From positions 360,001 through 392,000 of the forward strand of contig JACQJH010000002.1 in assembly GCA_016205145.1 (NCBI GenBank): a stretch of 32,000 nucleotides of DNA, given 5' to 3'. Each line of letters begins with the position of its first letter. Position 1 is the first letter of the stretch. Shown here one piece after another: positions 178 to 28,761 of this stretch. The notes under the pieces are model-generated. The model was not told the DNA's origin. It did not search any database and saw only the letters and a list, made by a program, of their open reading frames with translations. The position numbers and the translations under genes are program-made. The stretch is from Candidatus Iainarchaeum sp. (GTDB taxonomy: Archaea; Iainarchaeota; Iainarchaeia; Iainarchaeales; JACQJH01).

Positions 178-205
178 AAAAAAGCAACCTATACATATAG
201 GCTGC
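178..205 (-). terminator. Hairpin plus U-run downstream of gatB
   Basis: The minus strand reads GCAGCCTATA-TG-TATAGGTTGC, a 10-bp stem with one G-U pair, followed by TTTTTT (plus-strand A-run 178-183). It lies about 60 nt after the gatB stop at 266. Confidence 0.5.
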
Positions 206-265
206 CGGGCGCTTATAAAGGAGTTTTGGTACAATTTATGCCCTGGTACAAAAACCGGAATTTGC

Positions 266-2122
266 CTATTTGAGCAGTTTGGCGAATTTTTCCCCGAGCT
301 GCTTTGCGTCGGCCTTTCCGCGCAGTTCGCGCATCGCCAATCCGACCAGGAAGTTCAAGGCCTTTTCCCCGCCATTTTTGTAGTCTGCCGCGGCGGCAGG
401 GTTTGCCGCGACAACCCTTGCTATTGCCGCATCAACATCCCCCGAGCCGGCGTCCTTCAGCAAATCGTTCTTTTTGAGGAAATCCAGCGGCTCGGCTTTT
501 TCATTGACGTACGCAATCATCGCTTCCTTGGCGTTCTTTTCTGAAACTTTTCCCTGTTCGAGCAGGCGCAGTAGCCCCGCAATCTTGGCTGGTTCAAGGT
601 TCAGCCGCTTCAGGTCTAGGCCCGAGCGGTTTGCGATTGCAAGAAGCTCGCGAGTCAGGAAAGAGGCTGCAAGCTTTGGCTCAACGCCTTTCGCTGTTTC
701 CTCGAACAGCCTTCCAAGCGTTGCGTCGGATGAAAGCACTTTTGCCGTATAATCGTCCAATCCGAATTCCCTGCCGAAGCGCCCCGCCTTATTGGAATGC
801 AGTTCCGGCAGGCCTTTCTTGATTTCATGCAGTTCCGCTTCCAAAACAACGGTTTTGACCAGGTCGGAATCAAAAATATAGCCGTAGTCGTCCTCGGTTT
901 CCTTCAGCCTCAGCCTTTTCGTCACAAGGCCTTTCTCGTCAAACGACCTTGTTTCCCTTTCAACTTTTTTCCCCGCTGACAGAACCTTTCTCTGCCTCGC
1001 AATCTCGAATTCTAGGGCCTTTTCGACAAACCGGAAGCCGGAAATGTTCTTGACTTCGACGCGCTCGGAACCCTCGATTGAGGCGTTCGAATCGACTTTC
1101 AAAGTGTTCTTTCCCTGCTCGAAAACTTCCAGGTATTCGAGCATTTTGAGCAGTTCGTCCAGGAATTCGCGCGTTTCCTCCGGCTTTCCGAAATCCGGTT
1201 CCGTGACAATCTCGCACAGCGGAATGCCGGAACGGTTGTAGTCGATAAGGGAATAGGCCGAGCCGTGAATGCCGCCCTCGTGCACCAATGCCGCGGGATC
1301 CTCTTCCAGGTGGATGCGCCTTATGCGGATGGTTTTGCCGGATGGCAGCTTTACACTGCCGTTCTCCCCGACCGGAATCTCGAACTGCGTTATCTGGTAG
1401 TCCTTCGCCAGGTCGGGATAAAAGTATGTCTTGCGGCTGAAAAAAAATTCATTGTTGACCCTGCAGCCCAGTGCAAGGCAAAGCTTCAATGCAAAGTCGA
1501 CGGCTTTCCTGTTCAGGACCGGCTTGCTGCCCGGCATGCCAAGACAGGTTTCACAGCAATGCGAATTCGGCTCAGCTTCGGCAGTGGAACAGCCGCAGAA
1601 AAGCTTTGACTGCGTGTCCAGCTGCACGTGCACTTCTAGGCCCATGACTGGCGCGGGCCCGGAAACCTGTTCAACCGAATAATTGTCAACTGCATTGAGC
1701 AGTTTTTGCGGCGCAATTATTATGCCCGCGGTTTCAATTCCGGCATTGAAGCTTATCTCATTGTTTGAAAACAATGGTTTGTCGAAAATTTTTTTCACGC
1801 CATCAATCACGGGCGGGACGAGGCCTACAACGCAGCCGGTGTGCTTTTCGACTTCCTCGGAACTTGCAAGCCGGACAAGCTTTGCATTCGCGATTTGCAC
1901 CAGCCTTTTCTCGTCAACGCTCCGGTCACCGGACAGGACAACCAGCAACGGCTTTCCGTCCACGATGTACAGCAGGGTCTTGGCAATCTGCCTGAGCTGC
2001 ACGCCCCTGACACGCGCACTGTCAACCGGTTTCCTGGCGGGCGCGTGCTCCAAAAACCTGAACTGCAGGCCTTTGCCTTCAAGCCAGCCTTTCACCCATG
2101 CGCCCTGCTTCTGCCCTTGCAT
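266..2122 (-). CDS. gatB: Asp/Glu-tRNA amidotransferase subunit B fused to an N-terminal YbaK/ProX-type aminoacyl-tRNA deacylase domain
   Basis: 618-aa ORF with ATG at 2120-2122. Residues ~160-618 are GatB: MGLEVHVQLDTQSKLFCGCS, and a YqeY-like tail NFLVGLAMRELRGKADAKQL. Residues 1-~155 look like the YbaK/INS editing fold: IAKTLLYIVDGKPLLVVLSGDRSVDEKRL and HTGCVVGLVPP. There is no stop codon between the two parts. Confidence 0.9.
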   Translation of the reverse strand: MQGQKQGAWVKGWLEGKGLQFRFLEHAPARKPVDSARVRGVQLRQIAKTLLYIVDGKPLLVVLSGDRSVDEKRLVQIANAKLVRLASSEEVEKHTGCVVGLVPPVIDGVKKIFDKPLFSNNEISFNAGIETAGIIIAPQKLLNAVDNYSVEQVSGPAPVMGLEVHVQLDTQSKLFCGCSTAEAEPNSHCCETCLGMPGSKPVLNRKAVDFALKLCLALGCRVNNEFFFSRKTYFYPDLAKDYQITQFEIPVGENGSVKLPSGKTIRIRRIHLEEDPAALVHEGGIHGSAYSLIDYNRSGIPLCEIVTEPDFGKPEETREFLDELLKMLEYLEVFEQGKNTLKVDSNASIEGSERVEVKNISGFRFVEKALEFEIARQRKVLSAGKKVERETRSFDEKGLVTKRLRLKETEDDYGYIFDSDLVKTVVLEAELHEIKKGLPELHSNKAGRFGREFGLDDYTAKVLSSDATLGRLFEETAKGVEPKLAASFLTRELLAIANRSGLDLKRLNLEPAKIAGLLRLLEQGKVSEKNAKEAMIAYVNEKAEPLDFLKKNDLLKDAGSGDVDAAIARVVAANPAAAADYKNGGEKALNFLVGLAMRELRGKADAKQLGEKFAKLLK

Positions 2123-2125
2123 AAA

Positions 2126-2908
2126 TCATCCCTTCAGGTCAAATTTTTTGTAAAACGCTTCAGTGACTTTCCCGTTCGACGCGAAAACAAAGCTGTCGCC
2201 AGGCTTCCACTCCAATCCTTTTTCGTTCAAGACCTTTCCGCCGGCTTCCCGCACAATGACGGCGGCCGCGCAGATGTCCCACGGCTTGAGGCCGAAGCAC
2301 CAGAAAAACTCGCTTTTCCCTTCCCCTACACTGCAGATGTCCAAGGCCGCGGAGCCAAGCACATGCAATGATGCAACCTCCGAATTGAATCTGCGAAAAT
2401 TTTCAGTGTTCTGTAACGGCTTTCCGTAGCGCCTTCCCGGAAAACCCGTGCGGGCAAATGCATCGCCCATGCGCGAAATTTCCGACACAAAAATCTTTTT
2501 CGAATTCAAAAAAGCGCCTTTCCCCTTTTCCGCCGTGAAAACCTTTCCAAGCTGGGGCGCGAGCACCACACCCAAAACCGGCCGGTACGCTTCAACAAGC
2601 GCGACGCAAATGCAATGATGTTCAAAACCGCGCGAAAAATTGTGCGTGCCGTCAATCGGATCCACAACCCAAACTTTGCCGGAAAAATCGTCGTGCTTTG
2701 ATGAAAACTCTTCTGCACAGAAAACCGCATGCGGAAAATCCTTTTTTATTACGGACATTATTTTCTTTTCAGCCTCAAGGTCTGCCTCGGTGACTATCTC
2801 CTTTTCGGTCTTCATGCGCGACACCGCGTTTCCAAAAAAATTTTTCACGATCTTTCCAGCTTCCTTCGCCGCCTTCAGCGCGGTTTTCATTTCAGTTGTA
2901 TAAGTCAC
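2126..2908 (-). CDS. Inositol monophosphatase / FBPase family protein
   Basis: Motifs WVVDPIDGTHNF and KPWDICAAAVIVREAGG. The upstream part of the 310-aa track ORF overlaps gatA and is rejected. The preferred start is GTG at 2906-2908, with GGAGG 7 nt upstream and a GTGA overlap with the gatA stop. The alternative start is ATG at 2890. Confidence 0.8.
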   Translation of the reverse strand: MTYTTEMKTALKAAKEAGKIVKNFFGNAVSRMKTEKEIVTEADLEAEKKIMSVIKKDFPHAVFCAEEFSSKHDDFSGKVWVVDPIDGTHNFSRGFEHHCICVALVEAYRPVLGVVLAPQLGKVFTAEKGKGAFLNSKKIFVSEISRMGDAFARTGFPGRRYGKPLQNTENFRRFNSEVASLHVLGSAALDICSVGEGKSEFFWCFGLKPWDICAAAVIVREAGGKVLNEKGLEWKPGDSFVFASNGKVTEAFYKKFDLKG

Positions 2909-4362
2909 TTTACCGCCTCCGCGCTTGAAGCAAGGCTGAAAAGCGTTTTTTCCTGCAGGTGATTTGCCATGAGCATCATGCCGACCGGCAGGCCATTTGA
3001 GAATCCGGCATTGACGGAAACGTGCGGTATGCCGGCCAGATTCGCGGGAACCGTGCACAGGTCCATGGCATAGTTTTGCATCGGAGACAATTTTTCGATT
3101 TCAGAAAACTTGGGCGCAATTACCGGCATTGTAGGGCAGAGCAGTGCGTCGAATTCCTTGAAGGATTTCTTGAATTCCGCAATCAGTCTGGTGCGCACCT
3201 TCATCGCCTTGAGGTAATAAGCATCGCGGTAGCCGGACATCCTGGCAAACGTTCCAAGGATTATGCGGCGCTTTGCCTCTTCTCCAAAATGTTTGCTCCG
3301 CACTTTCGAAAAATATTCGTCGAAGTTGCCTTCAAGGCTTTCCTGGCAGCCGTAGCGGATGCCGCAGTATTTTGCGAGGTTGGTCGAGGCCTCGGAAACC
3401 GCAATCAGGTAATACGTGGAAACTCCGAACTCCGAGTTCAACGGCAGTGAAACCTCGCCCACTTTCGCGCCGTTTTCCTTCAGCCGGTCAACGCCCTGCA
3501 TGACAACGGATTTGACTTTTTCGTCAATGCCTTTTCCGAAAAATTCCTTCACAAGCCCTACCTTCAATCCCTTCACGCTTTTTCCGGCGGCAGCCAAAAA
3601 ATTTTCCGCGGGCTCGTTCAGCGAAGTCGAATCGTTTTTGTCGTGGCCCGCAATGCATTCAAGCATCAGCGCGGCGTCTTCGACGGTTTTCGCCATGGGG
3701 CCGATTTTGTCAAGCGAATTCGCATAATCCAGCAGGCCGTACCTTGAAACCCTGCCATAGGTAGGGCAAAAGCCGACAACGCCGTTGAATGAAGCCGGTG
3801 CCTCAATGCTGCCGCCCGTGCTCTCGCCGATTGAAACGTGCGCATGCTCTGTCAGGGCAGTGAAGCCTCCGCTTCCGCCGCTGCTTCCGCCGCACGACCG
3901 CGTTTCGTCAAAAGGGTTTTTTGGAACTTCAAAGCCGAGGCCTGTGTTCACGCTGAAAGTGCCGAAACCGAATTCGTCCTGCACGGTCTTACCGATTATG
4001 ACTGCGCCTTCAACTTTCGCCCGCGCAATGCAGGCCGCGTCAAACAACGGCTTGTAGCCGGAAAGAATGCGGCTCCCCGCCCTAGTCTCAACGCCTTTCA
4101 CGCACAGGCAGTCCTTCACTGAAACCGGCAGGCCGAAAAGCTTTCCTTTGGCCCCGCCATCCTTTCGCGCCTTGTCAAGCAGTTTTGCCTGCTCCAAAGC
4201 CTCTTTTTCGGAGACAACGCAGAAATGGCGGAATTTTTTGTTCGATTTTTTTATTTCTTCGAGGATTTTGTGCGTGTGCTCTTCAACCGAAACATTGCCA
4301 CGCAAAGCGTCTGAAACGAATTCCCTTGCGGACTGCGGTTTCCTTGTTTTCAATCGCACCAC
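2905..4362 (-). CDS. gatA: Asp/Glu-tRNA amidotransferase subunit A (amidase signature family)
   Basis: 485 aa with GLPVSVKDCLCVKGVETRAGSRIL and the amidase signature CGGSSGGSGG. The start is GTG (4360-4362), and no upstream or nearby ATG exists in frame. Confidence 0.9.
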   Translation of the reverse strand: MVRLKTRKPQSAREFVSDALRGNVSVEEHTHKILEEIKKSNKKFRHFCVVSEKEALEQAKLLDKARKDGGAKGKLFGLPVSVKDCLCVKGVETRAGSRILSGYKPLFDAACIARAKVEGAVIIGKTVQDEFGFGTFSVNTGLGFEVPKNPFDETRSCGGSSGGSGGFTALTEHAHVSIGESTGGSIEAPASFNGVVGFCPTYGRVSRYGLLDYANSLDKIGPMAKTVEDAALMLECIAGHDKNDSTSLNEPAENFLAAAGKSVKGLKVGLVKEFFGKGIDEKVKSVVMQGVDRLKENGAKVGEVSLPLNSEFGVSTYYLIAVSEASTNLAKYCGIRYGCQESLEGNFDEYFSKVRSKHFGEEAKRRIILGTFARMSGYRDAYYLKAMKVRTRLIAEFKKSFKEFDALLCPTMPVIAPKFSEIEKLSPMQNYAMDLCTVPANLAGIPHVSVNAGFSNGLPVGMMLMANHLQEKTLFSLASSAEAVK

Positions 4363-4368
4363 GTTTGT

Positions 4369-4944
4369 TCAGCGGATTTTCGCCTTGAGGCCCTTCCACC
4401 ACACGCCGTCAGACTTCATTGCCTCTTTGAAGATTTTTTTCGCGCTATCCGTTTTGAGTTCCTTTCCCGCGCGCTCAAACCATTCCACGCATTTTTTGTA
4501 GCCGTTGTCGAAATACTCTTTTCCCTGCAATGCAACTTCCAGAAGGTCAGCGTCCTTTGCAATTATCGCCTCAGCCGTTTTCTGCGCATTGAATTCCCGG
4601 AATAGTGCAAGCAGTCCCGTGCCGATGTCCTCCGGCAATTGTTCCGACTGGTGCCTTGCCGCAAGGTCTTCGGCTTCGGTCGAATCAATGTAATGCTGTG
4701 CGACCTTATGCAGATCGGTTACCCTCGCCTCGGGCATGTCATGGAAAACGCTCATTGCCGCGGCCTTATCCGCATCTGCCCCTTCAAGCTTCGCCAAAAC
4801 GAATGCAATCAATGCCGTGCGGTGCGAGTGCTCGGCGATGCTTTCAGGATTGTCAATTCCGGCAACCCACCAGCCCGAGCGCTTCTTGTATTTCAAGGCG
4901 CCCGCCTCGAAAAAATAGTCCGCGATTTTTTTGTAGTCCGGCAA
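4369..4944 (-). CDS. HD-domain phosphohydrolase (YfbR-like 5'-nucleotidase family)
   Basis: 191 aa with ESIAEHSHRTALIAFVL and FHDMPEARVTDL (an H...HD...D pattern). The TTG start abuts the gatC stop (TGATTG). GGTG lies 6 nt upstream inside the gatC 3' end. Confidence 0.75.
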   Translation of the reverse strand: MPDYKKIADYFFEAGALKYKKRSGWWVAGIDNPESIAEHSHRTALIAFVLAKLEGADADKAAAMSVFHDMPEARVTDLHKVAQHYIDSTEAEDLAARHQSEQLPEDIGTGLLALFREFNAQKTAEAIIAKDADLLEVALQGKEYFDNGYKKCVEWFERAGKELKTDSAKKIFKEAMKSDGVWWKGLKAKIR

Positions 4945-5280: not shown

Positions 5281-7071
5281 TCAGGCCTTATCCTTTTTGC
5301 CCGGAAGGCCTTCTTCGAGGTCGAGCTTTATGCTCAGCTCTTTGAGTTGCCTTGCACTGACTTCGCTTGGCGCGTTGTCCATCATTGAAATGCAGGCCTT
5401 GTTTTTCGGAAAGGCTATCACTTCGCGGATGCTTTCGTTGCCTGTAACCATTGCAACCAGCCTGTCAAGGCCGAAGGCTATTCCACCATGCGGCGGGGCG
5501 CCGTATTTGAAGGCTTCCAGCAAAAAGCCGAATTTTTTCTGCGCATCCTCCCGCGATATTTTGAGGATGTCGAAGATTTTTGACTGCAGTTCCTGCGAGT
5601 AAATCCTGAAACTGCCGCCGCCGAGCTCGACGCCGTTCACTGCAAGGTCGTACGCCATTGCCTTTGCCTTTTCCGGAGACCTGTCAAGCAAAGCTATGTC
5701 CTCTTTTCTCGGCGAAGTGAAAGGGTGGTGCATGGCATTCCACCTCTGCTCTTCCTCGCTCCACTCGAACATCGGAAAATCGGTTATCCAGACGAATTTG
5801 AAGTCATCGGGTTTCACAAGCTTCAGTTCATCGCGCAAATGCAGCCTTAACGCGGACAATGAATCGGAAACGATTTTTTCCGGCCCCGCGACAATGAGCA
5901 GGAGGTCGCCTTCCTTTGCCTGCAGTTTTTGTGCGATTGCATCCAGGATTTTTTTGTCAAAAAACTTTGAAACCTGCGAGTCCAATCCTTCCCTGGTGAC
6001 CTTTGCAGTAACGAGGCCTTTTGCCTTGAAGACTTTCGCCGTTTCCTCGAGTGTTTTAAGCTGGGATTTTGAAAAGTTTGCGCAGCCGCTTGCATTGATG
6101 CCCTTCACTTTGCCGCCGTTGCGCAGAATGCTTTTGAATACCTCGAAATTGCCTTTGCCTGCTTCCTCTGAAATGTCCGCAAGCTCGAGGCCGAACCTTG
6201 TGTCCGGCTTATCGCTTCCAAACCTAGACATTGCCTCGTCAAAGGTCATGCGCGGGAAAGGCGTTTTCACGCCGATTCCGAGCGAGGTTTTCCAAACGGC
6301 TTTCACCATGCCTTCCATTATTGAAAAGAATTCCTCGCGCTCGGGAAACGACATTTCCAGGTCGATTTGCGTGAATTCCGGCTGCCTGTCCGCCCTCAAA
6401 TCCTCGTCGCGGAAGCATTTTGCGACCTGGAAATAGCGGTCGAAGCCTGCAACCATCGACAACTGCTTGAACAGCTGCGGACTCTGCGGCAGGGCAAAAA
6501 ACTTTCCGGCATGCACCCTGCTCGGAACAAGATAGTCGCGCGCTCCCTCCGGAGTCGACTTCGCCAGGACAGGGGTTTCGATTTCAATGAAGCCCAAAGC
6601 GTCAAAATAGTCCCTGACTGTTTTCACTACGCGGTGCCGCATAATGAGGTTTTTCTGCATTTCCGGCTTGCGCAAATCCAAATAGCGGTATTTCAGCCGC
6701 ATGTCCTCGTTGACAGGAATCCTTGACTCGATCGGAAAAGGCAGTGCCTCGCTTTCGTTCAGTATTTCAACGGTGTCGGCGACGATTTCAATGCGGCCCG
6801 TCGGAATTTTCGGGTTTTCCGTGCCATTCGGCCGCTCCGCGACCGTTCCCTGCACTGAAACGACAAACTCGTCTTTCAGCTTTGCCGCAACTTCATGCGC
6901 CTTTTTGTTCACTTCGGGATTGAAGACGACCTGCGTTGTCCCGTACCTGTCGCGCACGTCAACAAAAGTGAGGCTGCCGTGGTCGCGCCTCGTTGCAATC
7001 CAGCCGTTCAAAACGACCTTCTTGCCCACGCTTTTTTCGTCAAGCCCGCCGCAGGTATGCGTCCGTTTCAT
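5281..7071 (-). CDS. aspS: Aspartyl-tRNA synthetase, bacterial-type (with GAD insertion domain)
   Basis: 596 aa with FALPQSPQLFKQL, FRDEDLRADRQPEFTQID, SDKPDTRFG, FVWITDFPMFEW, HHPFTSP and GGIAFGLDRL. The length and the large insertion between motifs 2 and 3 are the bacterial architecture. Confidence 0.9.
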   Translation of the reverse strand: MKRTHTCGGLDEKSVGKKVVLNGWIATRRDHGSLTFVDVRDRYGTTQVVFNPEVNKKAHEVAAKLKDEFVVSVQGTVAERPNGTENPKIPTGRIEIVADTVEILNESEALPFPIESRIPVNEDMRLKYRYLDLRKPEMQKNLIMRHRVVKTVRDYFDALGFIEIETPVLAKSTPEGARDYLVPSRVHAGKFFALPQSPQLFKQLSMVAGFDRYFQVAKCFRDEDLRADRQPEFTQIDLEMSFPEREEFFSIMEGMVKAVWKTSLGIGVKTPFPRMTFDEAMSRFGSDKPDTRFGLELADISEEAGKGNFEVFKSILRNGGKVKGINASGCANFSKSQLKTLEETAKVFKAKGLVTAKVTREGLDSQVSKFFDKKILDAIAQKLQAKEGDLLLIVAGPEKIVSDSLSALRLHLRDELKLVKPDDFKFVWITDFPMFEWSEEEQRWNAMHHPFTSPRKEDIALLDRSPEKAKAMAYDLAVNGVELGGGSFRIYSQELQSKIFDILKISREDAQKKFGFLLEAFKYGAPPHGGIAFGLDRLVAMVTGNESIREVIAFPKNKACISMMDNAPSEVSARQLKELSIKLDLEEGLPGKKDKA

Positions 7072-7150: not shown

Positions 7151-8149
7151 CTAAGCGAACTCCGCCATCGTCTTCTGGCCTTTCTTGGACAAGGGCCTTG
7201 CCGGAACCCCCAGCCGTCTTTGCACAAAGCCAGCGAATTCCTTTTCAAAGCCGTGCATTGTCAGAACGAGTTTCGGCGAGCATTGCTTCACGTATTCAAG
7301 CAAACCATTGAAGTCCGCGTGGTCGGACAACGGAAAAGTCTTGTCAAAAAAGCCCCTGTGCTGCCAGCCCGTGCAGAAAGCGGAAACCACTTTTTTGCCG
7401 GTTGAAAATTCCAGCGCCTGGAACAATTGCGGGCTTGCAAGCGAGGGCGGCAGGATCAGCACATTCGAGTCCTTGAGGTTGTGGTCAAGCTTCAGGTATT
7501 CACCGAGCTTGACGCCGCATTGCCCGTAAACCTCGTTGTTGCCGAAAACCGATTCGTGCACCAAAGGCGTCTGCTTCGAATAATTGTTCACGGTCGCAGT
7601 GAGTTCCTGCGCCTTGCCCGCCGCATACCCTGCCAGCACGACAAACCTGTTTTTTTCCGCGTTCTCGTCAACCCATTTTCCGATGTCCGCGTAAACCTTT
7701 TCCCTGTCGGGAAAAGAATACTGGGGCAGGCCGAAAGTCGTTTCCATCACCAGGACATCGGCCTTGAGCACTTCAGCGCCTTGCTGGATCAGGGAATCCT
7801 GAAATTTGAAATCGGATGTGAAGGCAATGCTTGAACCGTTTTCCATCAGCACCTGGCTTCCGCCGAGGATGTGGCCGGAGTTGTGCAGGCTCACTTCGAA
7901 GCCGTTTATGTCAAACTTTTTTTTGAAAGCCATTCCCTCAAGCCTTGCAGTGCCGGCTTTTTTGTAAATGTTTTTCACCAATGCAAGGGTTTCATTTGAC
8001 ATCAGGAAACGCGTTTTTTTGTTCAGGGAAACGTGGTCGGAATGGCAGTGTGAAATCACAGCCGTTTCCGTTTTCGGCGACCTGTGGGGGTCGATGACGA
8101 ATTCCTTTCCCGGTTCTATGGCTATGCCGTTGTCGAAAACAAGCTGCAT
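7151..8149 (-). CDS. Short-form metallo-beta-lactamase / beta-CASP nuclease
   Basis: 332 aa from ATG 8147-8149, with HCHSDH, GHILGGS, VMETTFG, LSDHAD and TMHGF motifs. The TTG at 8182 used by the track abuts a TATA-like CCTTTAAATT (8184-8192), so it is unlikely to be translated. Confidence 0.75.
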   Translation of the reverse strand: MQLVFDNGIAIEPGKEFVIDPHRSPKTETAVISHCHSDHVSLNKKTRFLMSNETLALVKNIYKKAGTARLEGMAFKKKFDINGFEVSLHNSGHILGGSQVLMENGSSIAFTSDFKFQDSLIQQGAEVLKADVLVMETTFGLPQYSFPDREKVYADIGKWVDENAEKNRFVVLAGYAAGKAQELTATVNNYSKQTPLVHESVFGNNEVYGQCGVKLGEYLKLDHNLKDSNVLILPPSLASPQLFQALEFSTGKKVVSAFCTGWQHRGFFDKTFPLSDHADFNGLLEYVKQCSPKLVLTMHGFEKEFAGFVQRRLGVPARPLSKKGQKTMAEFA

Positions 8150-8285
8150 GTTGGAAGGCCTGGAAAGAATAGGCGCTTCCAAAATTTAAAGGCGACGGGC
8201 AAGGCGAAAAAAAAGCCCCGGACCGGCAGGCGCAAGAATTTAAACCAAAAAAGGCATTATTGTAACCGCTTTTGCGGGTTTTTGC

Positions 8286-9802: not shown

Positions 9803-11089
9803 TCAAAAAATTTTCTGCAAATCATCAAAACTGTCGCCTTTTCCCACAACTTTCGCCTTGCCTTTTTCCACGAAGATTTCTTTCGGCCTCGGCCTCAGGT
9901 TGTAAAGCGATGCCATTGCAAATCCGTACGCGCCCGCATTGAGGAAGGCAAGCGTCTGCCCTTCTTTCGGCACGGGCATTCTGCGCAGATGCTTTTTGCT
10001 TTCAGTGAAAACATCCGTCGACTCGCACAAATTGCCGGCGACCAAAAACTCTTTTGTTTCCGCAGAGTAAACGTTTTCGCACACCAGTAGCTCGTGGTAG
10101 CTGCCATACAATGCCGGTCTCGCCAGCGTATTGAAGCCGGCGTTGACGCCGATTATGGGAACGAATTTTTCCTCGACTGTATTGATTTCCGCCAAAAGAA
10201 TGCCGGCATCGCCGACAACATACCTGCCCGGCTCGATCTTGATGCCCGCGTCAAGCCCCGATTCCTTCATTTTGGAACACAGGCCTTTTGCATACTCTTC
10301 AATCGGAAACGCCTTGTCCTCTTTCCTGTATGGAATGCCCGGCCCGCCGCCGAAGTCGATGAATTCAAGCTTTGCCTTTGTTTCCTTTTCAATCTGCTTT
10401 GCAAGCGCAATCGTCTTGTCAACGCCCTTCAAGAATACGGGCAAATCATCGCCAAGCCAGCCGGAGCCGAGATGCTGGTGCAATCCCGCAATCTTCATTC
10501 CGCTTTCAGCCGCAAGCCTGTAGGCTTTCAAAACATTGTGTTCCGGCACGCCGAACTTTATGAATTTGCCCGCGGTTATCACGTTCGGATTCAGGCCGAT
10601 GCCCATTCCCTCGCCGGGATTCCACCTGCATGAAAACTTTCCCTTGTAGCCAAGCTTTGCCAGCCTGTGGATCTGCGAAACCGAGTCAACGTTAATTTGC
10701 ACGCCAGATTTGATGAGCTGGCTGAAATCGTCATCGGAAACCGAAGTGCCCGTGAACAAAACTTCTTCAGCCTTGAAGCCGGCATTCAATGCAAGCATTG
10801 CCTCCTGCGGGCTCGTCGCGTCAACCTTAGCGCCTTCCGCCTTCAGGAGTTTGAGGATTGAAAGGTTAGCATTCGCCTTCATCGCATAATGGATGTCGAA
10901 CTTCCCGTCGGAATGCTTTTCAAACGCTTTTTTGACGCGCAGGAAATTCTGCCTTATGCGCTCAGGATTGTAGGCATAAAGCGGGGTGCCGAACTCTGCG
11001 GCCAGGCCTGCTGCGTCAGCGCCCGCGAACAGGAGCCTGTTCGCCTTCACTTCCAAATGCCCTTCGCTTTCAAACCATTGCCTTTGCAT
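9803..11089 (-). CDS. lysA: Diaminopimelate decarboxylase
   Basis: 428 aa, Orn/DAP/Arg decarboxylase fold: TPLYAYNPERIRQN, YAMKANANLSILKLL, HQHLGSG, DFGGGPGIPY and LVAGNLCESTDVF. Its 5' end overlaps the dapF 3' end by 20 nt. Confidence 0.9.
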   Translation of the reverse strand: MQRQWFESEGHLEVKANRLLFAGADAAGLAAEFGTPLYAYNPERIRQNFLRVKKAFEKHSDGKFDIHYAMKANANLSILKLLKAEGAKVDATSPQEAMLALNAGFKAEEVLFTGTSVSDDDFSQLIKSGVQINVDSVSQIHRLAKLGYKGKFSCRWNPGEGMGIGLNPNVITAGKFIKFGVPEHNVLKAYRLAAESGMKIAGLHQHLGSGWLGDDLPVFLKGVDKTIALAKQIEKETKAKLEFIDFGGGPGIPYRKEDKAFPIEEYAKGLCSKMKESGLDAGIKIEPGRYVVGDAGILLAEINTVEEKFVPIIGVNAGFNTLARPALYGSYHELLVCENVYSAETKEFLVAGNLCESTDVFTESKKHLRRMPVPKEGQTLAFLNAGAYGFAMASLYNLRPRPKEIFVEKGKAKVVGKGDSFDDLQKIF

Positions 11090-11900
11090 CCAGCTCGCCC
11101 TCGAAAACCTTCTGCGCCGGGCCCTGCACCAGCACGTTCCCGTCCTTTCTGATCTTCAAATCCCCGCCCGGATTGCTCACTATTATCCAGTCACCCGCTT
11201 TCAGCGTTCCGGAGGCAATTCCCGCCAATACGATTGCAACGGAACCTGAGCCGCATGCAAGAGTTTCGCAGTCCCCGCGCTCGTGCACCCTCATCCTCAC
11301 GTGCCTGTCCGAAACAATGTTCACAAACTCCGTGTTCGTGCGGCCGGGCGCAAAGTTTTTGTGGTATTCAATCTTGTGGCCGATGCGCTCCAAATCGATT
11401 TTGTCGACCGGCTGTCTGGTGAATATTACGGCATGCGGGTTGCCGACATTGACGAAATCGTAATTGAACTTTTCGCCATCGATTTCAATTGCCGAGTCCT
11501 TTGCCTCAACCTTCATGTCCCCGAAGAATTCGGTCTGCACGATCGCCAGGTTTTCCGCCTTGTCAAACGATATTATCTTTGCCTTGACTGTTTTCGTGTC
11601 CGTTTCGATGGAAAACTCTTTCTTCCCTGAAACAAGGAAAAATTCAAGCGAAACGCAGCGCAGGCCGTTGAAGCATTCCTCGGCCCTGCTGCCGTCTGCA
11701 TTGAAAACCGTCATCCGGAAATCCGCCTTCTTCGACGGTCCCAGCACCAACACTCCATCAGAGCCGACGCCAAACTTTCTCTTCGAGAAAGCCTTGGAAA
11801 ACGCTGCCTTCATTTCGTCCGGCAGCGCCTTCGCCTTCAATTCGTTGAGGACAATGAAATCATTGCCGAGACCGTGGATTTTTGAAAACTTTACGCGCAT
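11070..11900 (-). CDS. dapF: Diaminopimelate epimerase
   Basis: 276 aa with KIHGLGNDFIVL, NADGSRAEECFNGLRC (first catalytic Cys region), NVGNPHAV and ERGDCETLACGSGS (second catalytic Cys). Confidence 0.9.
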   Translation of the reverse strand: MRVKFSKIHGLGNDFIVLNELKAKALPDEMKAAFSKAFSKRKFGVGSDGVLVLGPSKKADFRMTVFNADGSRAEECFNGLRCVSLEFFLVSGKKEFSIETDTKTVKAKIISFDKAENLAIVQTEFFGDMKVEAKDSAIEIDGEKFNYDFVNVGNPHAVIFTRQPVDKIDLERIGHKIEYHKNFAPGRTNTEFVNIVSDRHVRMRVHERGDCETLACGSGSVAIVLAGIASGTLKAGDWIIVSNPGGDLKIRKDGNVLVQGPAQKVFEGELDAKAMV

Positions 11901-11944
11901 TGTGAACCATTCATCCGCATTGCATCAGTTCCATGACAGACATT

Positions 11945-13138
11945 TTATTCCGAAAGCCTTTTTGCCGCTTCTCTCACCCTTTCAATCTGCGGAACCAGCG
12001 CAAACCTCGCCCTGTCCTTTCCCGGATTCACGCCGCCGACGGTTTCGCTTATCAGGTTGCCCGGCACGGAGTTTATGCCCTTTTCCATGAGCAGCCACTC
12101 GCAGAATTTCTGCGGCGAGGAAAAACGGGCTGGAATTTTTGCCCACAGGAAAAACGTTCCCTCAGGCATCATGAACTCGCAGCCGATCGCATTCAGCGCG
12201 GGCGCGATTATGTCAAGCCTTTCCTTGTAAATCTTTCTCATTTCAACCGGATGCCTTTCATCGGAAAATGCCGCGGCTGACGCCGCCTGGATGAAAGATG
12301 CCACGCCCTGCACTGACTTGTCCTGTATGCGCTTGAAGGCATTGAGCAGAACCGGATTCTTTGACGCAACAAAGCCCGTGGCATAGCCTGTCATCATGCT
12401 TCGCTTCGACAAAGAATTGAGCACGATTGCGCAATTTTCACTTCCTTTGATTTCAAATATGCTGTGAGGCGGCTCCCCAAAATACAGGTCGGAATAGCAT
12501 TCATCCGAGACAAGAACGATTTTGTTGTCGTTGCAGAAATCAACTGCTTCCTTCAGCTTTTCCTTTGCGTAGATTTTCGCCGTAGGGCTCTGCGGCGAGT
12601 TCAGGAACAAAATCTTCGACTTTTTCACGGCGCTTTGCGGAATGCTTTCGAAATCCGGCTCGAAATCGTTTTCGGGCAGGAGATTGTAATAGTGCGGGAT
12701 CCCGCCCGCGATAATCGTGCCTGACGAGTAAGGAGGATAACCCGGATTCGGCACTATCGCGTGCTCGCCTTTTCCCGCGTCAATGAACAGCCTCGGAACC
12801 ACAAAGCACGAATACTTGGCGCCATAAGTCGAAACAATCTCGTTGGCTGAAACGGAAACATTGAACCGCTTTTTGAGCCAGCCCGAAATGCTTTCGCGCA
12901 AATCGCCTGTTCCGGCAGTGACCGGATAGCCGGAACATTTTTCCTCGTCGACCGCCCTCTTGCAGGCATTGCGGACTATTTCAGGCGTGGCATCAGTGGG
13001 ATCGCCTACGCCGAAGTCTATCAAGAACTCCTTTCCGAATTTTTTCTGCGCGAGTTCCTTGCCTTCGTCGACCGCCTTGAAAGGATAGGGCGCCTCAAGC
13101 AGCCTTTTAGCGTTCGGGTTGAGCCTGTCCTCAAACAT
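11945..13138 (-). CDS. dapL: PLP aminotransferase class I/II, probable LL-diaminopimelate aminotransferase
   Basis: 397 aa from ATG 13136-13138; the track ORF starts 5 codons upstream at a TTG. Motifs FGVGDPTDATP, NPGYPPY and SLSKRSMMTGY (PLP lysine). The DapL assignment rests on its position next to dapF/lysA and the absence of dapD/dapE in the window, so it is inference. Confidence 0.65.
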   Translation of the reverse strand: MFEDRLNPNAKRLLEAPYPFKAVDEGKELAQKKFGKEFLIDFGVGDPTDATPEIVRNACKRAVDEEKCSGYPVTAGTGDLRESISGWLKKRFNVSVSANEIVSTYGAKYSCFVVPRLFIDAGKGEHAIVPNPGYPPYSSGTIIAGGIPHYYNLLPENDFEPDFESIPQSAVKKSKILFLNSPQSPTAKIYAKEKLKEAVDFCNDNKIVLVSDECYSDLYFGEPPHSIFEIKGSENCAIVLNSLSKRSMMTGYATGFVASKNPVLLNAFKRIQDKSVQGVASFIQAASAAAFSDERHPVEMRKIYKERLDIIAPALNAIGCEFMMPEGTFFLWAKIPARFSSPQKFCEWLLMEKGINSVPGNLISETVGGVNPGKDRARFALVPQIERVREAAKRLSE

Positions 13139-13257
13139 GAAAAAACATTCCAAAACCGGTTTTAAGGATAGGGCACGGAATTGTTTAAAAAACCGTTTTC
13201 GCCGATCGCAGGCAACTGAATAACAATTAAATAAGCTTCAGTGGAACACTTTTAGCA

Positions 13258-14553
13258 ATGGCAAACGGCACGATAAAAGTCGGCCTGATCGGCTTCGGCA
13301 CGGTCGGGGCAGGTGTATACAGGCTTCTCACTGAAAAGAACGCCAAGCTCTCCGAGAGGATCGGCACAGGGCTCGAAGTGAAAAGAGTCTGCGTGAAAAA
13401 CGGGTCGAAAAAGCGGCCGGTCGACATTCCAAAGGAACTGCTTTCAACCGATTTCAGGGAAATAATCTCCGACCCCGAAATCGACATTGTCGTCGAGGCG
13501 ATCGGCGGCACGACCGACGCGAAAAAAATCTTTGACGGCGCAATCGCGAACGGCAAGCACATCGTTACAGCCAACAAGGCGCTGCTTGCCGAACAGGGCT
13601 ACGGGATTTTCAGGAAGGCTAAGGAAAAAAACGTGCTCATAGGCTTTGAGGCGTCCGTCTGCGCCGCTGTTCCGATCATAAAGGTTTTGCGCGAAAGCCT
13701 TGTCGCAAACGACATTCAGTTCGTCCACACCATAGTCAACGGCACGTGCAATTACATTCTCACGAGAATGTCCGAGGACGGCATGGACTTTGCCCAGGCA
13801 CTGAAGCTGGCGCAGGAAAAAGGCTTTGCGGAAGCCGACCCGAAACTTGACATTGACGGAAGCGATTCCGCGCACAAGCTGGTGCTTTTGGCCCTCACAG
13901 CGTTCGGCGCGCACATCACGGAAAAAGACATCCTGAAGGAAGGCATCACGCAGATAACGGAAAGGGACATAGAGTACGCGAAAGAGCTTGGTTACACTAT
14001 AAAGCTATTGGCAATCCTGCACAACAACGCGGGAAAGCTTGAGGCGAGAGTGCATCCGACGCTTCTGCCGAAAGACCACATGCTTGCCGACATCCGCAAC
14101 GAGTTCAACGCCATTCAGGTGAAAGGAGATGCGTGCGGCAGCCTGCTGTTTTCCGGAAAAGGGGCGGGCATGATGCCGACAGCTTCCGCAATGGTTTCAG
14201 ACATAGTCGAAATAGCGAAAAAGATCGCACGGCATGCCGTGAGAAGCGAATCGATAAAGTTCGACTCGATGAAGCTTGAAGGGCTCGACGAAATGGAGAC
14301 AAGGCATTACCTTCGCTTTACGGTCGTGGACGTTCCGGGTGTCATGGCAAAAATCTCCAAAACCCTGGGCGACAGCGGCATAAGCATTGCATCTATAATC
14401 CAGAAGGAAAGGTACGGCGAAGGCGAAGTAGTGCCGGTAGTGCTGACAACGCATGCCGCAAGCGAGAAAAAAATAGGCGAGGCGCTCAGGCAGATCGACA
14501 GGCTCGACTGCATAAAGGCGAAAACATTCAGGATAAGAATGATAGAATCATAA
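13258..14553 (+). CDS. hom: Homoserine dehydrogenase with C-terminal ACT domain
   Basis: 431 aa with IKVGLIGFGTVGAGVYRLL, ANKALLA, GFAEADPKLDIDGSDSAHKL and a C-terminal ACT-like region (RFTVVDVPGVMAKISKTLG). Confidence 0.9.
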   Translation: MANGTIKVGLIGFGTVGAGVYRLLTEKNAKLSERIGTGLEVKRVCVKNGSKKRPVDIPKELLSTDFREIISDPEIDIVVEAIGGTTDAKKIFDGAIANGKHIVTANKALLAEQGYGIFRKAKEKNVLIGFEASVCAAVPIIKVLRESLVANDIQFVHTIVNGTCNYILTRMSEDGMDFAQALKLAQEKGFAEADPKLDIDGSDSAHKLVLLALTAFGAHITEKDILKEGITQITERDIEYAKELGYTIKLLAILHNNAGKLEARVHPTLLPKDHMLADIRNEFNAIQVKGDACGSLLFSGKGAGMMPTASAMVSDIVEIAKKIARHAVRSESIKFDSMKLEGLDEMETRHYLRFTVVDVPGVMAKISKTLGDSGISIASIIQKERYGEGEVVPVVLTTHAASEKKIGEALRQIDRLDCIKAKTFRIRMIES

Positions 14554-14555
14554 AA

Positions 14556-14654
14556 AGCCGGTTTCGTCCGGCTGGTCCGAAACCAAGGCTTATTGCCGAT
14601 GCAATAAGCCGGGTAAGGCAATAGGCCATAAAAGCGCGCTACGAGATTCGTAGC
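14556..14654 (+). repeat. Intergenic modular hairpin element, copy A (box + H1 + H2 + H3)
   Basis: AGCCGGTTTCGTCCGGCTGGT (14556-14576) is identical to 23884-23904. H1 is GGTTTCG (14560-66) / 11-nt loop / CGAAACC (14578-84). H2 is GGCTTATTGC (14587-96) / CGAT / GCAATAAGCC (14601-10). H3 is GCTACGA (14638-44) / GAT / TCGTAGC (14648-54), followed by an A6...T6 stretch. The element starts 3 nt after the hom stop. Confidence 0.8.
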
Positions 14655-14717
14655 AAAAAAGTAGTTTTTTAATGTTTTTCGTAAAGAGTATTTTGTGGTA
14701 AAATCGGGGTTGGTGCA

Positions 14718-15464: not shown

Positions 15465-15544
15465 GGCGGCCGGCAAAAAAGCAAAGCAAAGAGATTTTCA
15501 AAAACAAAAGCAAAAAACAAAAAAGTTTTGAGGTGAAACAAATC

Positions 15545-19677: not shown

Positions 19678-19749
19678 AGCCCCGAGAGGGATTTGAACCC
19701 TCGGCCACTCGCTTACGAAGCGAGTGCTCTACCGCTGAGCTACCGGGGC
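19678..19749 (-). tRNA. tRNA-Thr (anticodon CGU)
   Basis: GCCCCGG-TA-GCTC-AGCGGTA-GAGC-A-CTCGC-TTCGTAA-GCGAG-TGGCC-GAGGG-TTCAAAT-CCCTC-TCGGGGC-T. All four stems pair (one G-U in the acceptor stem). 72 nt, no encoded CCA, no intron. Confidence 0.9.
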
Positions 19750-21348: not shown

Positions 21349-21420
21349 GAAAACCAACGAGGAATTTTTGCTTAAAAGCCTTTTTAAACAATGCCTTCAA
21401 ATAGGTAGTAGGCTGGTTTC
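21349..21420. promoter_or_regulatory. Divergent glyS / nop5 promoter region
   Basis: This 72-nt spacer contains CTTAAAAG (21371-78; minus strand CTTTTAAG, 23-30 nt upstream of the glyS ATG) and TTTTTAAA (21381-88, 33-40 nt upstream of the nop5 ATG). Confidence 0.45.
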
Positions 21421-23761: not shown

Positions 23762-23807
23762 CGCGGGACAAAAACTTAAACCACCTTCACGTTGTCAAAC
23801 GGGTTTT

Positions 23808-23882: not shown

Positions 23883-23883
23883 T

Positions 23884-28665: not shown

Positions 28666-28761
28666 AATCAAAACCAAAAACCCCGCAAAACAAAAAAGAA
28701 TCGCATCAAAAAAGCACCGGAATCAAACAAATTAAAAAAGAAAAAAATAAAAATTGCCCGC

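What the first reader, a model, noticed from the sequence alone, without database searches (positions are those of the whole stretch)
266..2122. Complete YbaK/ProX-type aminoacyl-tRNA deacylase domain fused in frame to the N-terminus of GatB
**Seen in sequence:**
- One uninterrupted 618-aa ORF.
- Residues 1-~155 carry the hallmarks of the free-standing trans-editing family: the KTL-containing strand IAKTLLYIVDGKPLLVVLSGDRSVDEKRL and the glycine-rich HTGCVVGLVPP loop.
- The canonical GatB start (MGLEVHVQL) follows at residue 160 with no stop and essentially no linker.

**Established knowledge:** GatB positions the acceptor end of Asp-tRNA(Asn) or Glu-tRNA(Gln) for phosphorylation and amidation. 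YbaK-family domains hydrolyse mischarged aminoacyl-tRNAs in trans.

**Inference:** A covalent editing module on the amidotransferase would put a deacylase at the only step where a deliberately mischarged tRNA exists. It could clear unamidated or wrongly charged species, or act as an extra tRNA-binding handle. I do not recall this architecture being described.

**Additional observation:** The internal ATG at 1643-1645 could also yield a stand-alone GatB.
Basis: partly seen in the sequence, partly recalled or inferred. Interest (0 to 1): 0.7.

Follow-up and report, generated by a model that had tools for sequence, protein, structure and literature searches.

The report
GatB amidotransferase carrying a tRNA-editing module
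An uncultured DPANN archaeon encodes a GatB subunit with a complete YbaK/ProX-type aminoacyl-tRNA deacylase domain fused to it, a conserved but undescribed design suggesting some archaea hydrolytically proofread the deliberately mischarged Asp-tRNA(Asn).

Summary
Window 266-2122 (minus strand) is one 618-aa ORF: a tRNA_edit (YbaK/ProX) domain, a short linker, then a complete GatB. It is not an artefact: 32 of the 120 best database clusters (44-100% identical) have the same domain set, and an independent assembly reproduces the protein at 100%. It closes an aspS-gatC-HD-gatA-IMPase-gatB operon in an Iainarchaeota (Diapherotrites) archaeon.

New findings:
- The module occurs in two topologies, N-terminal (as here) or inserted inside GatB's four-Cys loop.
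- GatB-linked modules form one clade with no confirmed free-living members.
- The module is as conserved as the GatB core and keeps the catalytic Lys and GXXXP loop.
- It is cleanly absent from close relatives (84-89% identical flanks).
- Related editing domains are fused to AspRS, or to the GatB YqeY tail alone.

Best reading (inferred, about 0.45): a cis-acting deacylase that clears Asp-tRNA(Asn), or another wrong species on tRNAAsn/tRNAAsp, that escapes amidation.

No paper found describes the architecture. The idea of a conserved internal start is not supported. I rate it a new variant of a known kind, of moderately high interest.

The parts
266..2122 (-). Complete fused gene edit::gatB (618 aa plus stop)
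   Evidence: ORF list; Pfam and NCBIfam; AF2 model with pLDDT 90.9
1646..2122 (-). N-terminal editing module plus linker (aa 1-159); the Pfam tRNA_edit match covers aa 26-142, i.e. nt 1697-2047
   Evidence: Pfam 81.5 bits; Foldseek TM 0.87 to 2Z0K, 2CX5 and 1WDV; 1WDV is the best PDB sequence match, E 1.3e-12
1979..1981 (-). Codon of Lys48 (QIAK motif), the superfamily's invariant catalytic/positioning lysine
   Evidence: 100% conserved in the GatB-linked, AspRS-linked, edit-YqeY and free groups
1811..1825 (-). G100-L-V-P-P104, the GXXXP loop of the editing pocket
   Evidence: G100, V102, P103 and P104 are 100% conserved in the GatB-linked clade
1646..1669 (-). Short linker QVSGPAPV (aa 152-159) between the editing module and GatB strand beta1
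   Evidence: Alignment; secondary structure of the model
839..1645 (-). GatB_N catalytic cradle domain (aa 160-428), beginning with MGLEVHVQL
   Evidence: Pfam E 4.5e-88; Foldseek to GatB chains of 3IP4, 3H0L, 3AL0 and 3KFU
1544..1597 (-). Four-Cys loop (C176, C178 ... C190, C193). In type B homologues the editing module is inserted between these two Cys pairs
   Evidence: Sequences; motif positions; invariant C190 and C193; invariant C26, C28, C213 and C216 in P0015
272..709 (-). GatB_Yqey tail domain (aa 472-617), the tRNA-binding tail
   Evidence: Pfam E 2.4e-32
183..206 (-). Terminator-like hairpin followed by a T-run, just downstream of the gatB stop (probable operon end)
2126..3058 (-). 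Inositol-monophosphatase-family gene immediately upstream (3-nt gap to the gatB ATG). The listed GTG start overlaps gatA, so the true start is probably further downstream
   Evidence: Pfam; the same gene is at this position in L002 and L005
2905..4362 (-). gatA (amidase subunit)
   Evidence: Pfam Amidase E 1.2e-125
4369..4944 (-). HD-domain (HD_3/YfbR-like) gene inside the operon
   Evidence: Pfam; conserved in L002
4945..5244 (-). gatC
   Evidence: Pfam GatC E 3.4e-17
5281..7071 (-). aspS, a bacterial-type AspRS with a GAD domain; first gene of the cluster
   Evidence: Pfam; NCBIfam NF001750 at 849.5 bits against a cut-off of 443

Best explanation
**What it is.** This is a genuine, conserved variant of gatB from an Iainarchaeota (Diapherotrites, DPANN) archaeon. 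A YbaK/ProX-superfamily aminoacyl-tRNA editing module precedes a complete and apparently functional GatB. The module belongs to a clade found, among the proteins sampled here, only attached to GatB. The gene is the last in an aspS-gatC-HD-gatA-IMPase-gatB operon, which holds the full enzyme set for making Asn-tRNA(Asn) by the indirect route.

**Most likely mechanism (inferred).** GatB's helical and YqeY tail domains hold tRNA(Asn). The Asp-charged CCA end normally enters the GatB cradle, where it is phosphorylated and amidated. The adjacent editing pocket (Lys48 and the G100-P104 loop) offers a second, hydrolytic destination. Asp-tRNA(Asn) that cannot be amidated, or another wrong aminoacyl/tRNA pair made by the relaxed AspRS, would then be deacylated in cis instead of being released to the elongation factor.

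The module appears to be an optional fidelity add-on rather than part of the amidation chemistry, because very close relatives lack it.

**Shown:** the architecture, the fold, retention of the catalytic signature, strong purifying selection, monophyly of the GatB-linked modules, the two insertion topologies, and the genomic and fusion links to AspRS and to the GatB tail.

**Inferred:** that the module is catalytically active, what its substrate is, and that the CCA end partitions between the two sites.
For: - **Architecture and fold:**
- **Recurrence:** 32 of the top 120 clusters carry PF04073 + PF02934 + PF02637 at 44-100% identity, named Ca. Diapherotrites or archaeon. Named genome hits are Ca. 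Iainarchaeum.
- **Two topologies with one homologous module:**. The type B model is confident (pLDDT 89.4), with beta1 at the N-terminus and a disordered return linker.
- **Single clade:** the 32 GatB-linked domains included in the tree form one clade with no outsiders. Scores drop sharply from 150-174 bits to 89 bits or less outside it.
- **Purifying selection:** mean pairwise identity is 58.2% for the module and 53.6% for the GatB core over 435 pairs, r = 0.60. K48, T95, the G100/P103/P104 loop, D114 and F125-N126-A127-G128 are at least 97% conserved, most of them 100%.
- **Pathway linkage:**
  - The operon with bacterial-type aspS and gatC/gatA is seen in the window, and the cluster recurs in L005 and, more loosely, in L003.
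  - gatE is present on the P0009 contig, so GatCAB there most likely serves the Asn pathway.
  - Related tRNA_edit domains are fused to the C-terminus of an archaeal-type non-discriminating AspRS (P0141) and of bacterial-type AspRS (P0171, and 743/744-aa ORFs in L007 and L008). In L007 gatCAB lies downstream.
  - A related domain is encoded 40 bp downstream of aspS in a Patescibacteria genome.
  - The NJ sister group contains tRNA_edit + GatB_Yqey proteins that lack the cradle domain.
- **Literature:** the YqeY domain acts as a cis tRNA-affinity enhancer (PMC1865053). Asp-tRNA(Asn) can leak into translation and is toxic (PMC3367201).
Against: - There is no biochemical evidence. Retained active-site residues are also needed for mere binding of the CCA end.
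- A deacylase aimed at the pathway's own intermediate risks a futile cycle.
- The module is dispensable. P0004 (84% identical GatB, identical operon) and P0090 (89% identical to the type B protein P0019) lack it entirely.
- The nearest solved relatives have no established substrate: T. thermophilus ProX was crystallised with Ala- and Cys-adenylate analogues, and APE2540 is uncharacterised.
- JGI names relatives 'Ala-tRNA(Pro) deacylase'.
- AspRS-linked domains are not the specific sister of the GatB-linked clade in the NJ tree.
- The edit-YqeY gene in L015 is not next to aspS or gatCAB.
Confidence: 0.45

Rival explanations
1. The module is a general ProX-type trans-editing factor, for example one that clears Ala- or Cys-tRNA(Pro) or another common mischarging product. 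It has merely been tethered to the AspRS/GatCAB machinery for co-expression or co-localisation in a small-genome archaeon, and has no role specific to the Asn pathway.
For: Relatives are annotated 'Ala-tRNA(Pro) deacylase' or 'YbaK/EbsC family', and a large free-standing family exists in DPANN and Patescibacteria. The closest solved structures are ProRS-associated ProX proteins. tRNA_edit domains also fuse to unrelated partners such as Redoxin, GNAT and GmrSD_N. The module is dispensable in close relatives.
Against: GatB-linked modules form their own clade, with clade-specific invariant residues (W9, I46, C97, K111, S124, G133) and no confirmed free-living member. Three different fusion partners all come from the same indirect-aminoacylation toolkit: whole GatB, the GatB tail, and AspRS. 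Insertion into the GatB cradle loop (type B) indicates structural integration rather than loose tethering.
Confidence: 0.25
2. The module is a non-hydrolytic acceptor-end or tRNA-binding domain. It acts as a holding site that captures or protects the aminoacylated CCA end during hand-over from AspRS to GatB, or sharpens discrimination of tRNA(Asn) from tRNA(Asp). In effect it would stabilise a transamidosome.
For: The conserved Lys and GXXXP loop serve substrate binding and positioning in this superfamily (established knowledge, recalled from memory). The YqeY module associated with related domains is a tRNA-affinity enhancer (PMC1865053). Transamidosomes depend on controlled hand-over (PMC3367201). 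Bacterial-type AspRS with a GAD domain is present in the same operon.
Against: The full catalytic signature is retained at essentially 100% over deep divergence, which is more than binding alone usually requires. No catalytically dead YbaK-family binding domain is known to me. Close relatives function without the module.
Confidence: 0.15
3. The module edits a non-canonical product of AspRS, such as D-Asp-tRNA(Asp) or another non-protein amino acid. That is, it proofreads AspRS itself rather than the Asp-tRNA(Asn) intermediate, and reaches GatB only because GatB and AspRS work as a complex.
For: Related domains are fused to or adjacent to AspRS in several phyla, including a Patescibacteria locus where no gatCAB was seen within the 10-kb locus examined. 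Other members of this superfamily edit non-protein amino acids (from memory).
Against: There is no direct evidence. The edit-YqeY and GatB fusions point to GatB-type tRNA recognition rather than to AspRS. No D-aminoacyl activity is known for this fold.
Confidence: 0.08
4. Assembly, frameshift or gene-calling artefact that joins two separate genes.
For: One relative (L001/L013) shows a 181-aa 'stand-alone' call overlapping a truncated gatB.
Against: That relative is itself a broken copy of the fusion, with a roughly 45-aa deletion plus a frameshift. At least 32 clusters from different samples and assemblers carry the intact fusion, including a 100% identical copy on two other contigs. Composition is uniform across the junction, and both models are confident.
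Confidence: 0.01

Closest known systems
GatB subunit of GatCAB (Asp-tRNA(Asn)/Glu-tRNA(Gln) amidotransferase); solved examples 3IP4, 3H0L, 3AL0, 3KFU, 4WJ3
   Same: Residues 160-618 are a complete GatB: cradle, helical and YqeY tail domains, conserved catalytic motifs, and an operon with gatC, gatA and aspS. NCBIfam equivalogs pass, and Foldseek gives TM 0.87.
   Different: It carries an extra domain of about 150 aa that is absent from every solved GatB and from most sequenced GatBs. In sister lineages the same domain is inserted between the two Cys pairs of the cradle loop.
Free-standing YbaK/ProX-family trans-editing proteins (T. thermophilus ProX 2CX5/2Z0K, A. pernix APE2540 1WDV, H. influenzae YbaK 1DBU)
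   Same: Same fold (TM 0.83-0.87, rmsd 1.7-2.7 A), the same invariant Lys, and the same GXXXP loop.
   Different: It is covalently attached to GatB rather than free. It forms a separate clade with its own invariant residues. It fails the YbaK equivalog cut-off (44 bits against 153). Its substrate is unknown.
INS editing domain inserted in bacterial ProRS (for example 2J3L)
   Same: A YbaK-superfamily domain built in cis into an enzyme that handles the acceptor end of aminoacyl-tRNA. Type B homologues likewise carry it as an internal insertion.
   Different: The host enzyme is an amidotransferase, not a synthetase. Sequence identity is only about 20%.
Bacterial SepRS with an N-terminal tRNA-Thr-ED editing domain (PMC8762117)
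   Same: An editing domain fused to an enzyme of an indirect aminoacylation pathway that deliberately makes a misacylated intermediate.
   Different: Different editing fold (ThrRS-type), different pathway (Sep/Cys), and fused to the synthetase rather than to the tRNA-dependent modifying enzyme.
D. radiodurans GlnRS-YqeY chimera (PMC1865053) and the AspRS-GatC bifunctional protein (NCBIfam NF009460)
   Same: Precedents for shuffling modules between the direct and indirect pathways. YqeY acts there as a cis tRNA-affinity enhancer, which is relevant to the tRNA_edit + GatB_Yqey proteins found here.
   Different: Neither of them involves a hydrolytic editing domain.
AspRS::tRNA_edit fusions found here (P0141, P0171, L007 2813-5044)
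   Same: A related YbaK/ProX-type domain attached to the other enzyme of the same pathway, in DPANN archaea, with gatCAB nearby in L007.
   Different: The domain is C-terminal. It belongs to the large, mostly free-standing 'GAKAL ... PPFG ... FNAGxH' group rather than to the GatB-linked clade. I found no paper describing it either.

Membership tests
GatB (tRNA-dependent amidotransferase subunit B) | GatB_N cradle domain plus helical and GatB_Yqey tail domains, scoring above curated family thresholds | tested here: met
   Pfam GatB_N 295.5 bits and GatB_Yqey 112.3 bits. NCBIfam NF004012 503.5 bits against 338, and TIGR00133 446 bits against 315.
GatB (tRNA-dependent amidotransferase subunit B) | Three-dimensional fold of solved GatB | tested here: met
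   Foldseek TM (target-normalised) 0.83-0.89 to 3IP4_B, 3H0L_B and 2G5I_B.
GatB (tRNA-dependent amidotransferase subunit B) | Genomic association with gatA and gatC (and often aspS) | tested here: met
   aspS-gatC-HD-gatA-IMPase-gatB on the minus strand. The same layout is seen in L002 and L005, and a looser version of the cluster in L003.
GatB (tRNA-dependent amidotransferase subunit B) | Kinase/transamidase activity on Asp-tRNA(Asn) or Glu-tRNA(Gln) | not testable with these tools
   Conserved motifs such as HLEEDP, EIVTEPD and EVKN are invariant in alignment A1, but activity needs an assay.
YbaK/ProX/INS superfamily (Pfam tRNA_edit PF04073) | Profile match above Pfam's gathering score | tested here: met
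   81.5 bits against 25.5; profile positions 1-121 of 123 are covered.
YbaK/ProX/INS superfamily (Pfam tRNA_edit PF04073) | YbaK fold | tested here: met
   TM 0.87 and rmsd 1.7-1.9 A to 1WDV, 2CX5 and 2Z0K; TM 0.85 to 1DBU.
YbaK/ProX/INS superfamily (Pfam tRNA_edit PF04073) | Invariant catalytic/positioning Lys and the GXXXP loop | tested here: met
   K48 and G100...P104 are 100% conserved in the GatB-linked clade and in all comparison groups.
YbaK/ProX/INS superfamily (Pfam tRNA_edit PF04073) | Aminoacyl-tRNA deacylase activity | not testable with these tools
   Requires in vitro deacylation assays.
YbaK proper (Cys-tRNA(Pro) deacylase, TIGR00011/NF007951) | Equivalog-level sequence match | tested here: not met
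   TIGR00011 scores 44-48 bits against a cut-off of 153; NF007951 scores 17 bits against 243.
ProXp-ala (Ala-tRNA(Pro) deacylase, e.g. C. crescentus 1VJF) | Close structural and sequence similarity to characterised ProXp-ala | tested here: inconclusive
   Foldseek TM 0.71, rmsd 4.1 A and 16% identity to 1VJF, which is weaker than to ProX 2CX5 and APE2540. No curated ProXp-ala profile was available.
Free-standing trans-editing factor | Encoded as an autonomous single-domain protein | tested here: not met
   The domain is fused in frame. No confirmed free-living member of the GatB-linked clade was found. The one apparent example, P0001, is a broken fusion.
Intein or other mobile insertion (considered for type B) | Splice-junction residues (Cys/Ser/Thr at the start, His-Asn then Cys/Ser/Thr at the end), an endonuclease, or flanking repeats | tested here: not met
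   By inspection, type B insert boundaries lack these residues. The insert is only a tRNA_edit domain plus a linker. No flanking direct repeats are present in the window.

The most novel reading that the evidence does not exclude
A dedicated clade of YbaK-type deacylases has evolved to police the obligatory mischarged intermediates of indirect aminoacylation, Asp-tRNA(Asn) and possibly Glu-tRNA(Gln). It borrows GatB's own tRNA-recognition modules, either as whole-GatB fusions in two topologies or as tail-only fusions. Some archaea would then back up channelling and elongation-factor discrimination with true hydrolytic proofreading built into the amidotransferase. That would be a fidelity checkpoint not previously known for this pathway.
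Probability: 0.35. Interest if true: 0.85.

Novelty: new variant of a known kind. Interest (0 to 1): 0.68.

Why it matters
Indirect synthesis of Asn-tRNA and Gln-tRNA depends on making a mischarged tRNA on purpose. The accepted safeguards are substrate channelling in transamidosomes and rejection by elongation factors (PMC3367201). No hydrolytic editing step is known for this pathway.

A conserved, catalytically intact editing domain wired into GatB, together with related domains on AspRS and on the GatB tail alone, makes a concrete question testable: do some organisms hydrolyse Asp-tRNA(Asn) that escapes amidation?

The family also offers a natural experiment in protein architecture. The same module is either N-terminal or inserted in a Cys loop, and it is present or absent between near-identical genes. 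It could assign a substrate to a branch of the YbaK superfamily that has none. The naturally occurring versions with and without the module are ready-made controls.

Tried and rejected
- **Assembly or frameshift artefact: rejected.** The architecture recurs in at least 32 clusters, an identical copy exists on other contigs, and composition is uniform.
- **The 'stand-alone' nearest relative P0001: rejected.** It proved to be a broken fusion, with a roughly 45-aa deletion and a frameshift.
- **The 151-aa and 168-aa 'free' YbaK calls in L007 and L008: rejected.** They are the C-terminal ends of 743/744-aa AspRS::tRNA_edit ORFs.
- **Internal start at the ATG at 1643-1645: not supported as a conserved feature.** The equivalent residue is Ile or Val in 9 of the 10 other type A homologues, and nothing was found by the scan. 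That scan does not model archaeal promoters.
- **Intein or mobile-element explanation for the clean presence/absence: rejected.** There are no splice-junction residues, no endonuclease and no flanking repeats.
- **AspRS-linked domains as the specific sister of the GatB-linked clade: not supported.** The NJ tree does not place them together, and by raw distance they only tie with free-standing proteins. I therefore claim related domains, not the same clade.
- **Polarity of type A versus type B: unresolved.** The editing-domain tree nests most type A sequences among type B, while the GatB-core tree interleaves everything. NJ without support values is too weak to decide. MAFFT aligned the type B linker (DELIVE...) to the type A beta1 strand, but this is not significant evidence of homology.
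- **Genome-collection scan: low yield.** The 17-sequence alignment failed, and the 4-sequence version found only 5 loci.
- **Distance between the two pockets: not measured.** Model coordinates are not exposed to the sandbox.
- **Literature: no description found.** Ten searches of PMC and bioRxiv found nothing on GatB-YbaK, AspRS-YbaK or YbaK-YqeY fusions, or on hydrolytic editing of Asp-tRNA(Asn). Subscription-only papers were not searchable.
Full report
**1.

Window 266-2122 on the minus strand is one uninterrupted 618-aa ORF. Pfam finds tRNA_edit (PF04073) at aa 26-142 (81.5 bits against a gathering score of 25.5), GatB_N at aa 159-428 and GatB_Yqey at aa 472-617. The NCBIfam GatB equivalogs pass their cut-offs. 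The two parts are joined by a short linker (QVSGPAPV), rather than none.

An AlphaFold2 model built on a 90-sequence alignment is confident throughout (pLDDT 90.9, pTM 0.81). Foldseek matches the C-terminal ~460 aa to solved GatB chains (TM 0.87). Separately, it matches the N-terminal ~150 aa to T. thermophilus ProX and A. pernix APE2540 (TM 0.87, rmsd 1.7-1.9 A) and to H. influenzae YbaK (TM 0.85). No PDB chain contains both parts.

**2. It is not an artefact, and it is not unique**

A full-length search returned a 100% identical protein on two other contigs. A further 31 clusters (at 90% identity) among the top 120 hits carry PF04073 + PF02934 + PF02637. They are 589-705 aa long and 44-61% identical to the window protein, and the sources that name them call them only 'GatB' from Ca. 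Diapherotrites or unclassified archaea. A genome scan names Ca. Iainarchaeum. GC content is uniform across the junction.

The one apparently stand-alone close relative (P0001, 181 aa) is a damaged copy of the same fusion. It has a roughly 45-aa deletion and a frameshift exactly at the junction.

**3. Context**

The window is archaeal: it encodes Nop5 and fibrillarin. The fused gene is the last in a minus-strand cluster:
- aspS, bacterial-type with a GAD domain (NF001750, 849 bits)
- gatC
- an HD-domain gene
- gatA
- an IMPase-family gene
- edit::gatB, followed by a terminator-like hairpin

The aspS-gatC-gatA-IMPase-gatB core of this layout recurs in L005 (type A), and a looser version of the cluster (aspS and gatC-gatA-gatB, without the IMPase gene) in L003 (type B). 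The contig around L005 also encodes GatE, so GatCAB there most likely serves Asn-tRNA(Asn) formation, as is usual in archaea.

**4.

(a) *Two topologies.* In 12 clusters, including the window, the module precedes a complete GatB (type A). In 22 clusters GatB's first strand and first Cys pair (IGLEIHxQL...CxC) come first. The editing domain and an acidic linker follow, and GatB then resumes at PNSxxCxxCLGxPGSKP (type B). In type B the domain is therefore inserted between the two Cys pairs of the cradle loop. Alignment A6 shows beta1 and both Cys pairs invariant on either side of the insert. A type B model is confident (pLDDT 89.4, pTM 0.74): beta1 spans residues 8-17, the module spans 37-179, and a disordered return linker spans 193-205.

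(b) *One clade.* The 32 GatB-linked modules included in the domain tree form a single clade with no outsiders. In an exhaustive search of 1.84 billion representative proteins, scores fall from 150-174 bits for GatB-linked proteins to 89 bits or less for everything else.

(c) *Strong constraint.* Over 435 pairs of fused proteins the module is 58.2% identical on average and the GatB core 53.6%, with r = 0.60. The superfamily's catalytic signature (Lys48, Thr95, the Gly100-Pro104 GXXXP loop, Asp114, and FNAG at 125-128) is essentially invariant. The clade also has its own invariant residues: W9, I46, C97, K111, S124 and G133.

(d) *Facultative presence.* In the GatB-core tree, types A and B and unfused proteins are interleaved. 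Three comparisons show how clean the difference is:
- The window's closest GatB (P0004, 84% identical) sits in the identical operon with no module at all.
- At the DNA level the flanks are about 80-85% identical and a block of roughly 460 nt is simply present or absent.
- The type B protein P0019 and the unfused P0090 are 89-96% identical on both sides of a clean 177-aa in-frame indel.

(e) *Partners from the same pathway.* Related tRNA_edit domains are fused to the C-terminus of an archaeal-type non-discriminating AspRS (P0141; NF003483, 508 bits against 353). They are also fused to bacterial-type AspRS (P0171, and the 743/744-aa ORFs in Woesearchaeota L007 and Nanoarchaeota L008). In L007, gatC-gatA-gatB follows 2 kb downstream. 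In a Patescibacteria genome the domain is a separate gene 40 bp after aspS.

The NJ sister group of the GatB-linked clade contains ~300-aa proteins made of tRNA_edit plus GatB_Yqey, with no cradle domain. P0161 aligns to window aa 13-150 and again to aa 454-617. A partial tRNA_edit protein in the same sister group, P0231, is from a Nanohaloarchaea archaeon.

**5. Mechanism (inferred)**

GatB's tail binds the tRNA body. YqeY-type domains have been shown to act as cis tRNA-affinity enhancers (PMC1865053). Mischarged Asp-tRNA(Asn) is known to leak into translation and to be toxic when it is not channelled (PMC3367201).

A catalytically intact YbaK-type pocket held next to the GatB cradle, in two different topologies, is most simply read as a second, hydrolytic destination for the acceptor end of the tRNA that GatB is holding. 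The existence of the same kind of domain on the GatB tail alone fits this reading. The module would clear Asp-tRNA(Asn) that cannot be amidated, or another wrong pair produced by the relaxed AspRS.

Its dispensability fits a fidelity accessory rather than a core catalytic part. I put this reading at about 0.45.

**6. Rivals**

- A generic ProX-type factor merely tethered to this machinery (0.25). This is favoured by the annotations, by the nearest solved relatives and by the promiscuous fusions of the domain to Redoxin, GNAT and GmrSD_N. It is disfavoured by the GatB-only clade, its private invariant residues and the repeated choice of partners from one pathway.
- A non-hydrolytic holding or discrimination domain (0.15).
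- An editor of non-canonical AspRS products such as D-Asp (0.08).
- An artefact (0.01 or less).

**7. Comparison with what is known**

As a GatB the protein meets every sequence, fold and context criterion tested. As a member of the tRNA_edit superfamily it meets the profile, fold and motif criteria. It fails the YbaK equivalog threshold (44 bits against 153) and matches ProXp-ala only weakly (TM 0.71). It should therefore not be called YbaK or ProXp-ala.

The closest concepts are:
- the INS domain inserted in ProRS;
- the N-terminal editing domain of bacterial SepRS in another indirect pathway (PMC8762117);
- module shuffling, as in D. radiodurans GlnRS-YqeY (PMC1865053) and in the AspRS-GatC fusion proteins.

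**8. Novelty and verdict**

Ten full-text searches found no description of a GatB-YbaK, AspRS-YbaK or YbaK-YqeY architecture, nor of hydrolytic editing of Asp-tRNA(Asn). The sequences are public but are annotated only as GatB.

I classify this as a new variant of a known kind. The architecture is real and well supported. The function is plausible and now backed by comparative genomics, but it is not shown.

Interest 0.68.

Noticed in passing
window 5281-7071 (-): A bacterial-type AspRS with a GAD insertion domain (NF001750, 849 bits) heads the gatCAB cluster in an archaeal genome. The same arrangement occurs in related Iainarchaeota loci, which suggests the whole aspS-gatCAB unit may be of bacterial origin.
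   Followed up: partly
window 4369-4944 (-) and 2126-3058 (-): An HD-domain (YfbR-like) gene and an inositol-monophosphatase-family gene are interleaved with gatC, gatA and gatB. Both are conserved at these positions in L002, and the IMPase gene also in L005. Their role is unknown. The listed GTG start of the IMPase ORF overlaps gatA by about 150 nt and is probably too far upstream.
   Followed up: partly
L001 / L013 (JAPLVT010000097.1), locus coordinates 2505-4251: A Ca. Iainarchaeum relative carries the same fusion, broken by a roughly 45-aa deletion that removes the end of the editing domain, GatB strand beta1 and the first Cys pair, plus a frameshift. It is either a pseudogene or an assembly error.
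   Followed up: partly
L007 2813-5044 and L008 3273-5507: Uninterrupted 743/744-aa AspRS::tRNA_edit fusion ORFs in Woesearchaeota and Nanoarchaeota MAGs. The public gene calls record only the last 151 or 168 aa as 'YbaK/EbsC family protein'. In L007, gatC-gatA-gatB (unfused) lies about 2 kb downstream.
   Followed up: yes
P0161 (L015 8001-8936), P0181, P0229: Proteins of about 300 aa made of a tRNA_edit domain plus a GatB_Yqey tail, with no GatB catalytic domain. In L015 the gene is not next to aspS or gatCAB. They are apparently undescribed.
   Followed up: partly
P0183, P0242, P0255, P0257, P0265, P0268: Other unusual tRNA_edit architectures among distant relatives: three tandem editing domains (seen by inspecting the sequences), and fusions to GmrSD_N, Redoxin/AhpC, a GNAT acetyltransferase and a cupin/DUF6016 region (the last only below Pfam's cut-offs).
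   Followed up: no
L011 (JAFCCG010000003.1): A contig encoding a close relative of the editing module (56% identical) is binned as 'Chloroflexi bacterium'. It is probably a mis-binned archaeal contig.
   Followed up: no
window 9803-16456: A cluster of lysine/threonine-branch genes: lysA-like decarboxylase, dapF, an aminotransferase, homoserine dehydrogenase with an ACT domain, and dapA. This is notable biosynthetic capacity for a DPANN archaeon.
   Followed up: no
window 19678-19749 (-), 23807-23883 (+), 19852-21357 (-): tRNA-Thr(CGU) and tRNA-Arg(CCU) genes, and a dimeric-type GlyRS. No tRNA(Asn), tRNA(Asp), AsnRS or ProRS lies in the window, so their status in this genome is unknown.
   Followed up: no
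window 7151-8182 (-) and 27382-28677 (-): Two beta-CASP/metallo-beta-lactamase nuclease-like genes. The first resembles the ligase-associated exonuclease family but scores below its cut-off.
   Followed up: no
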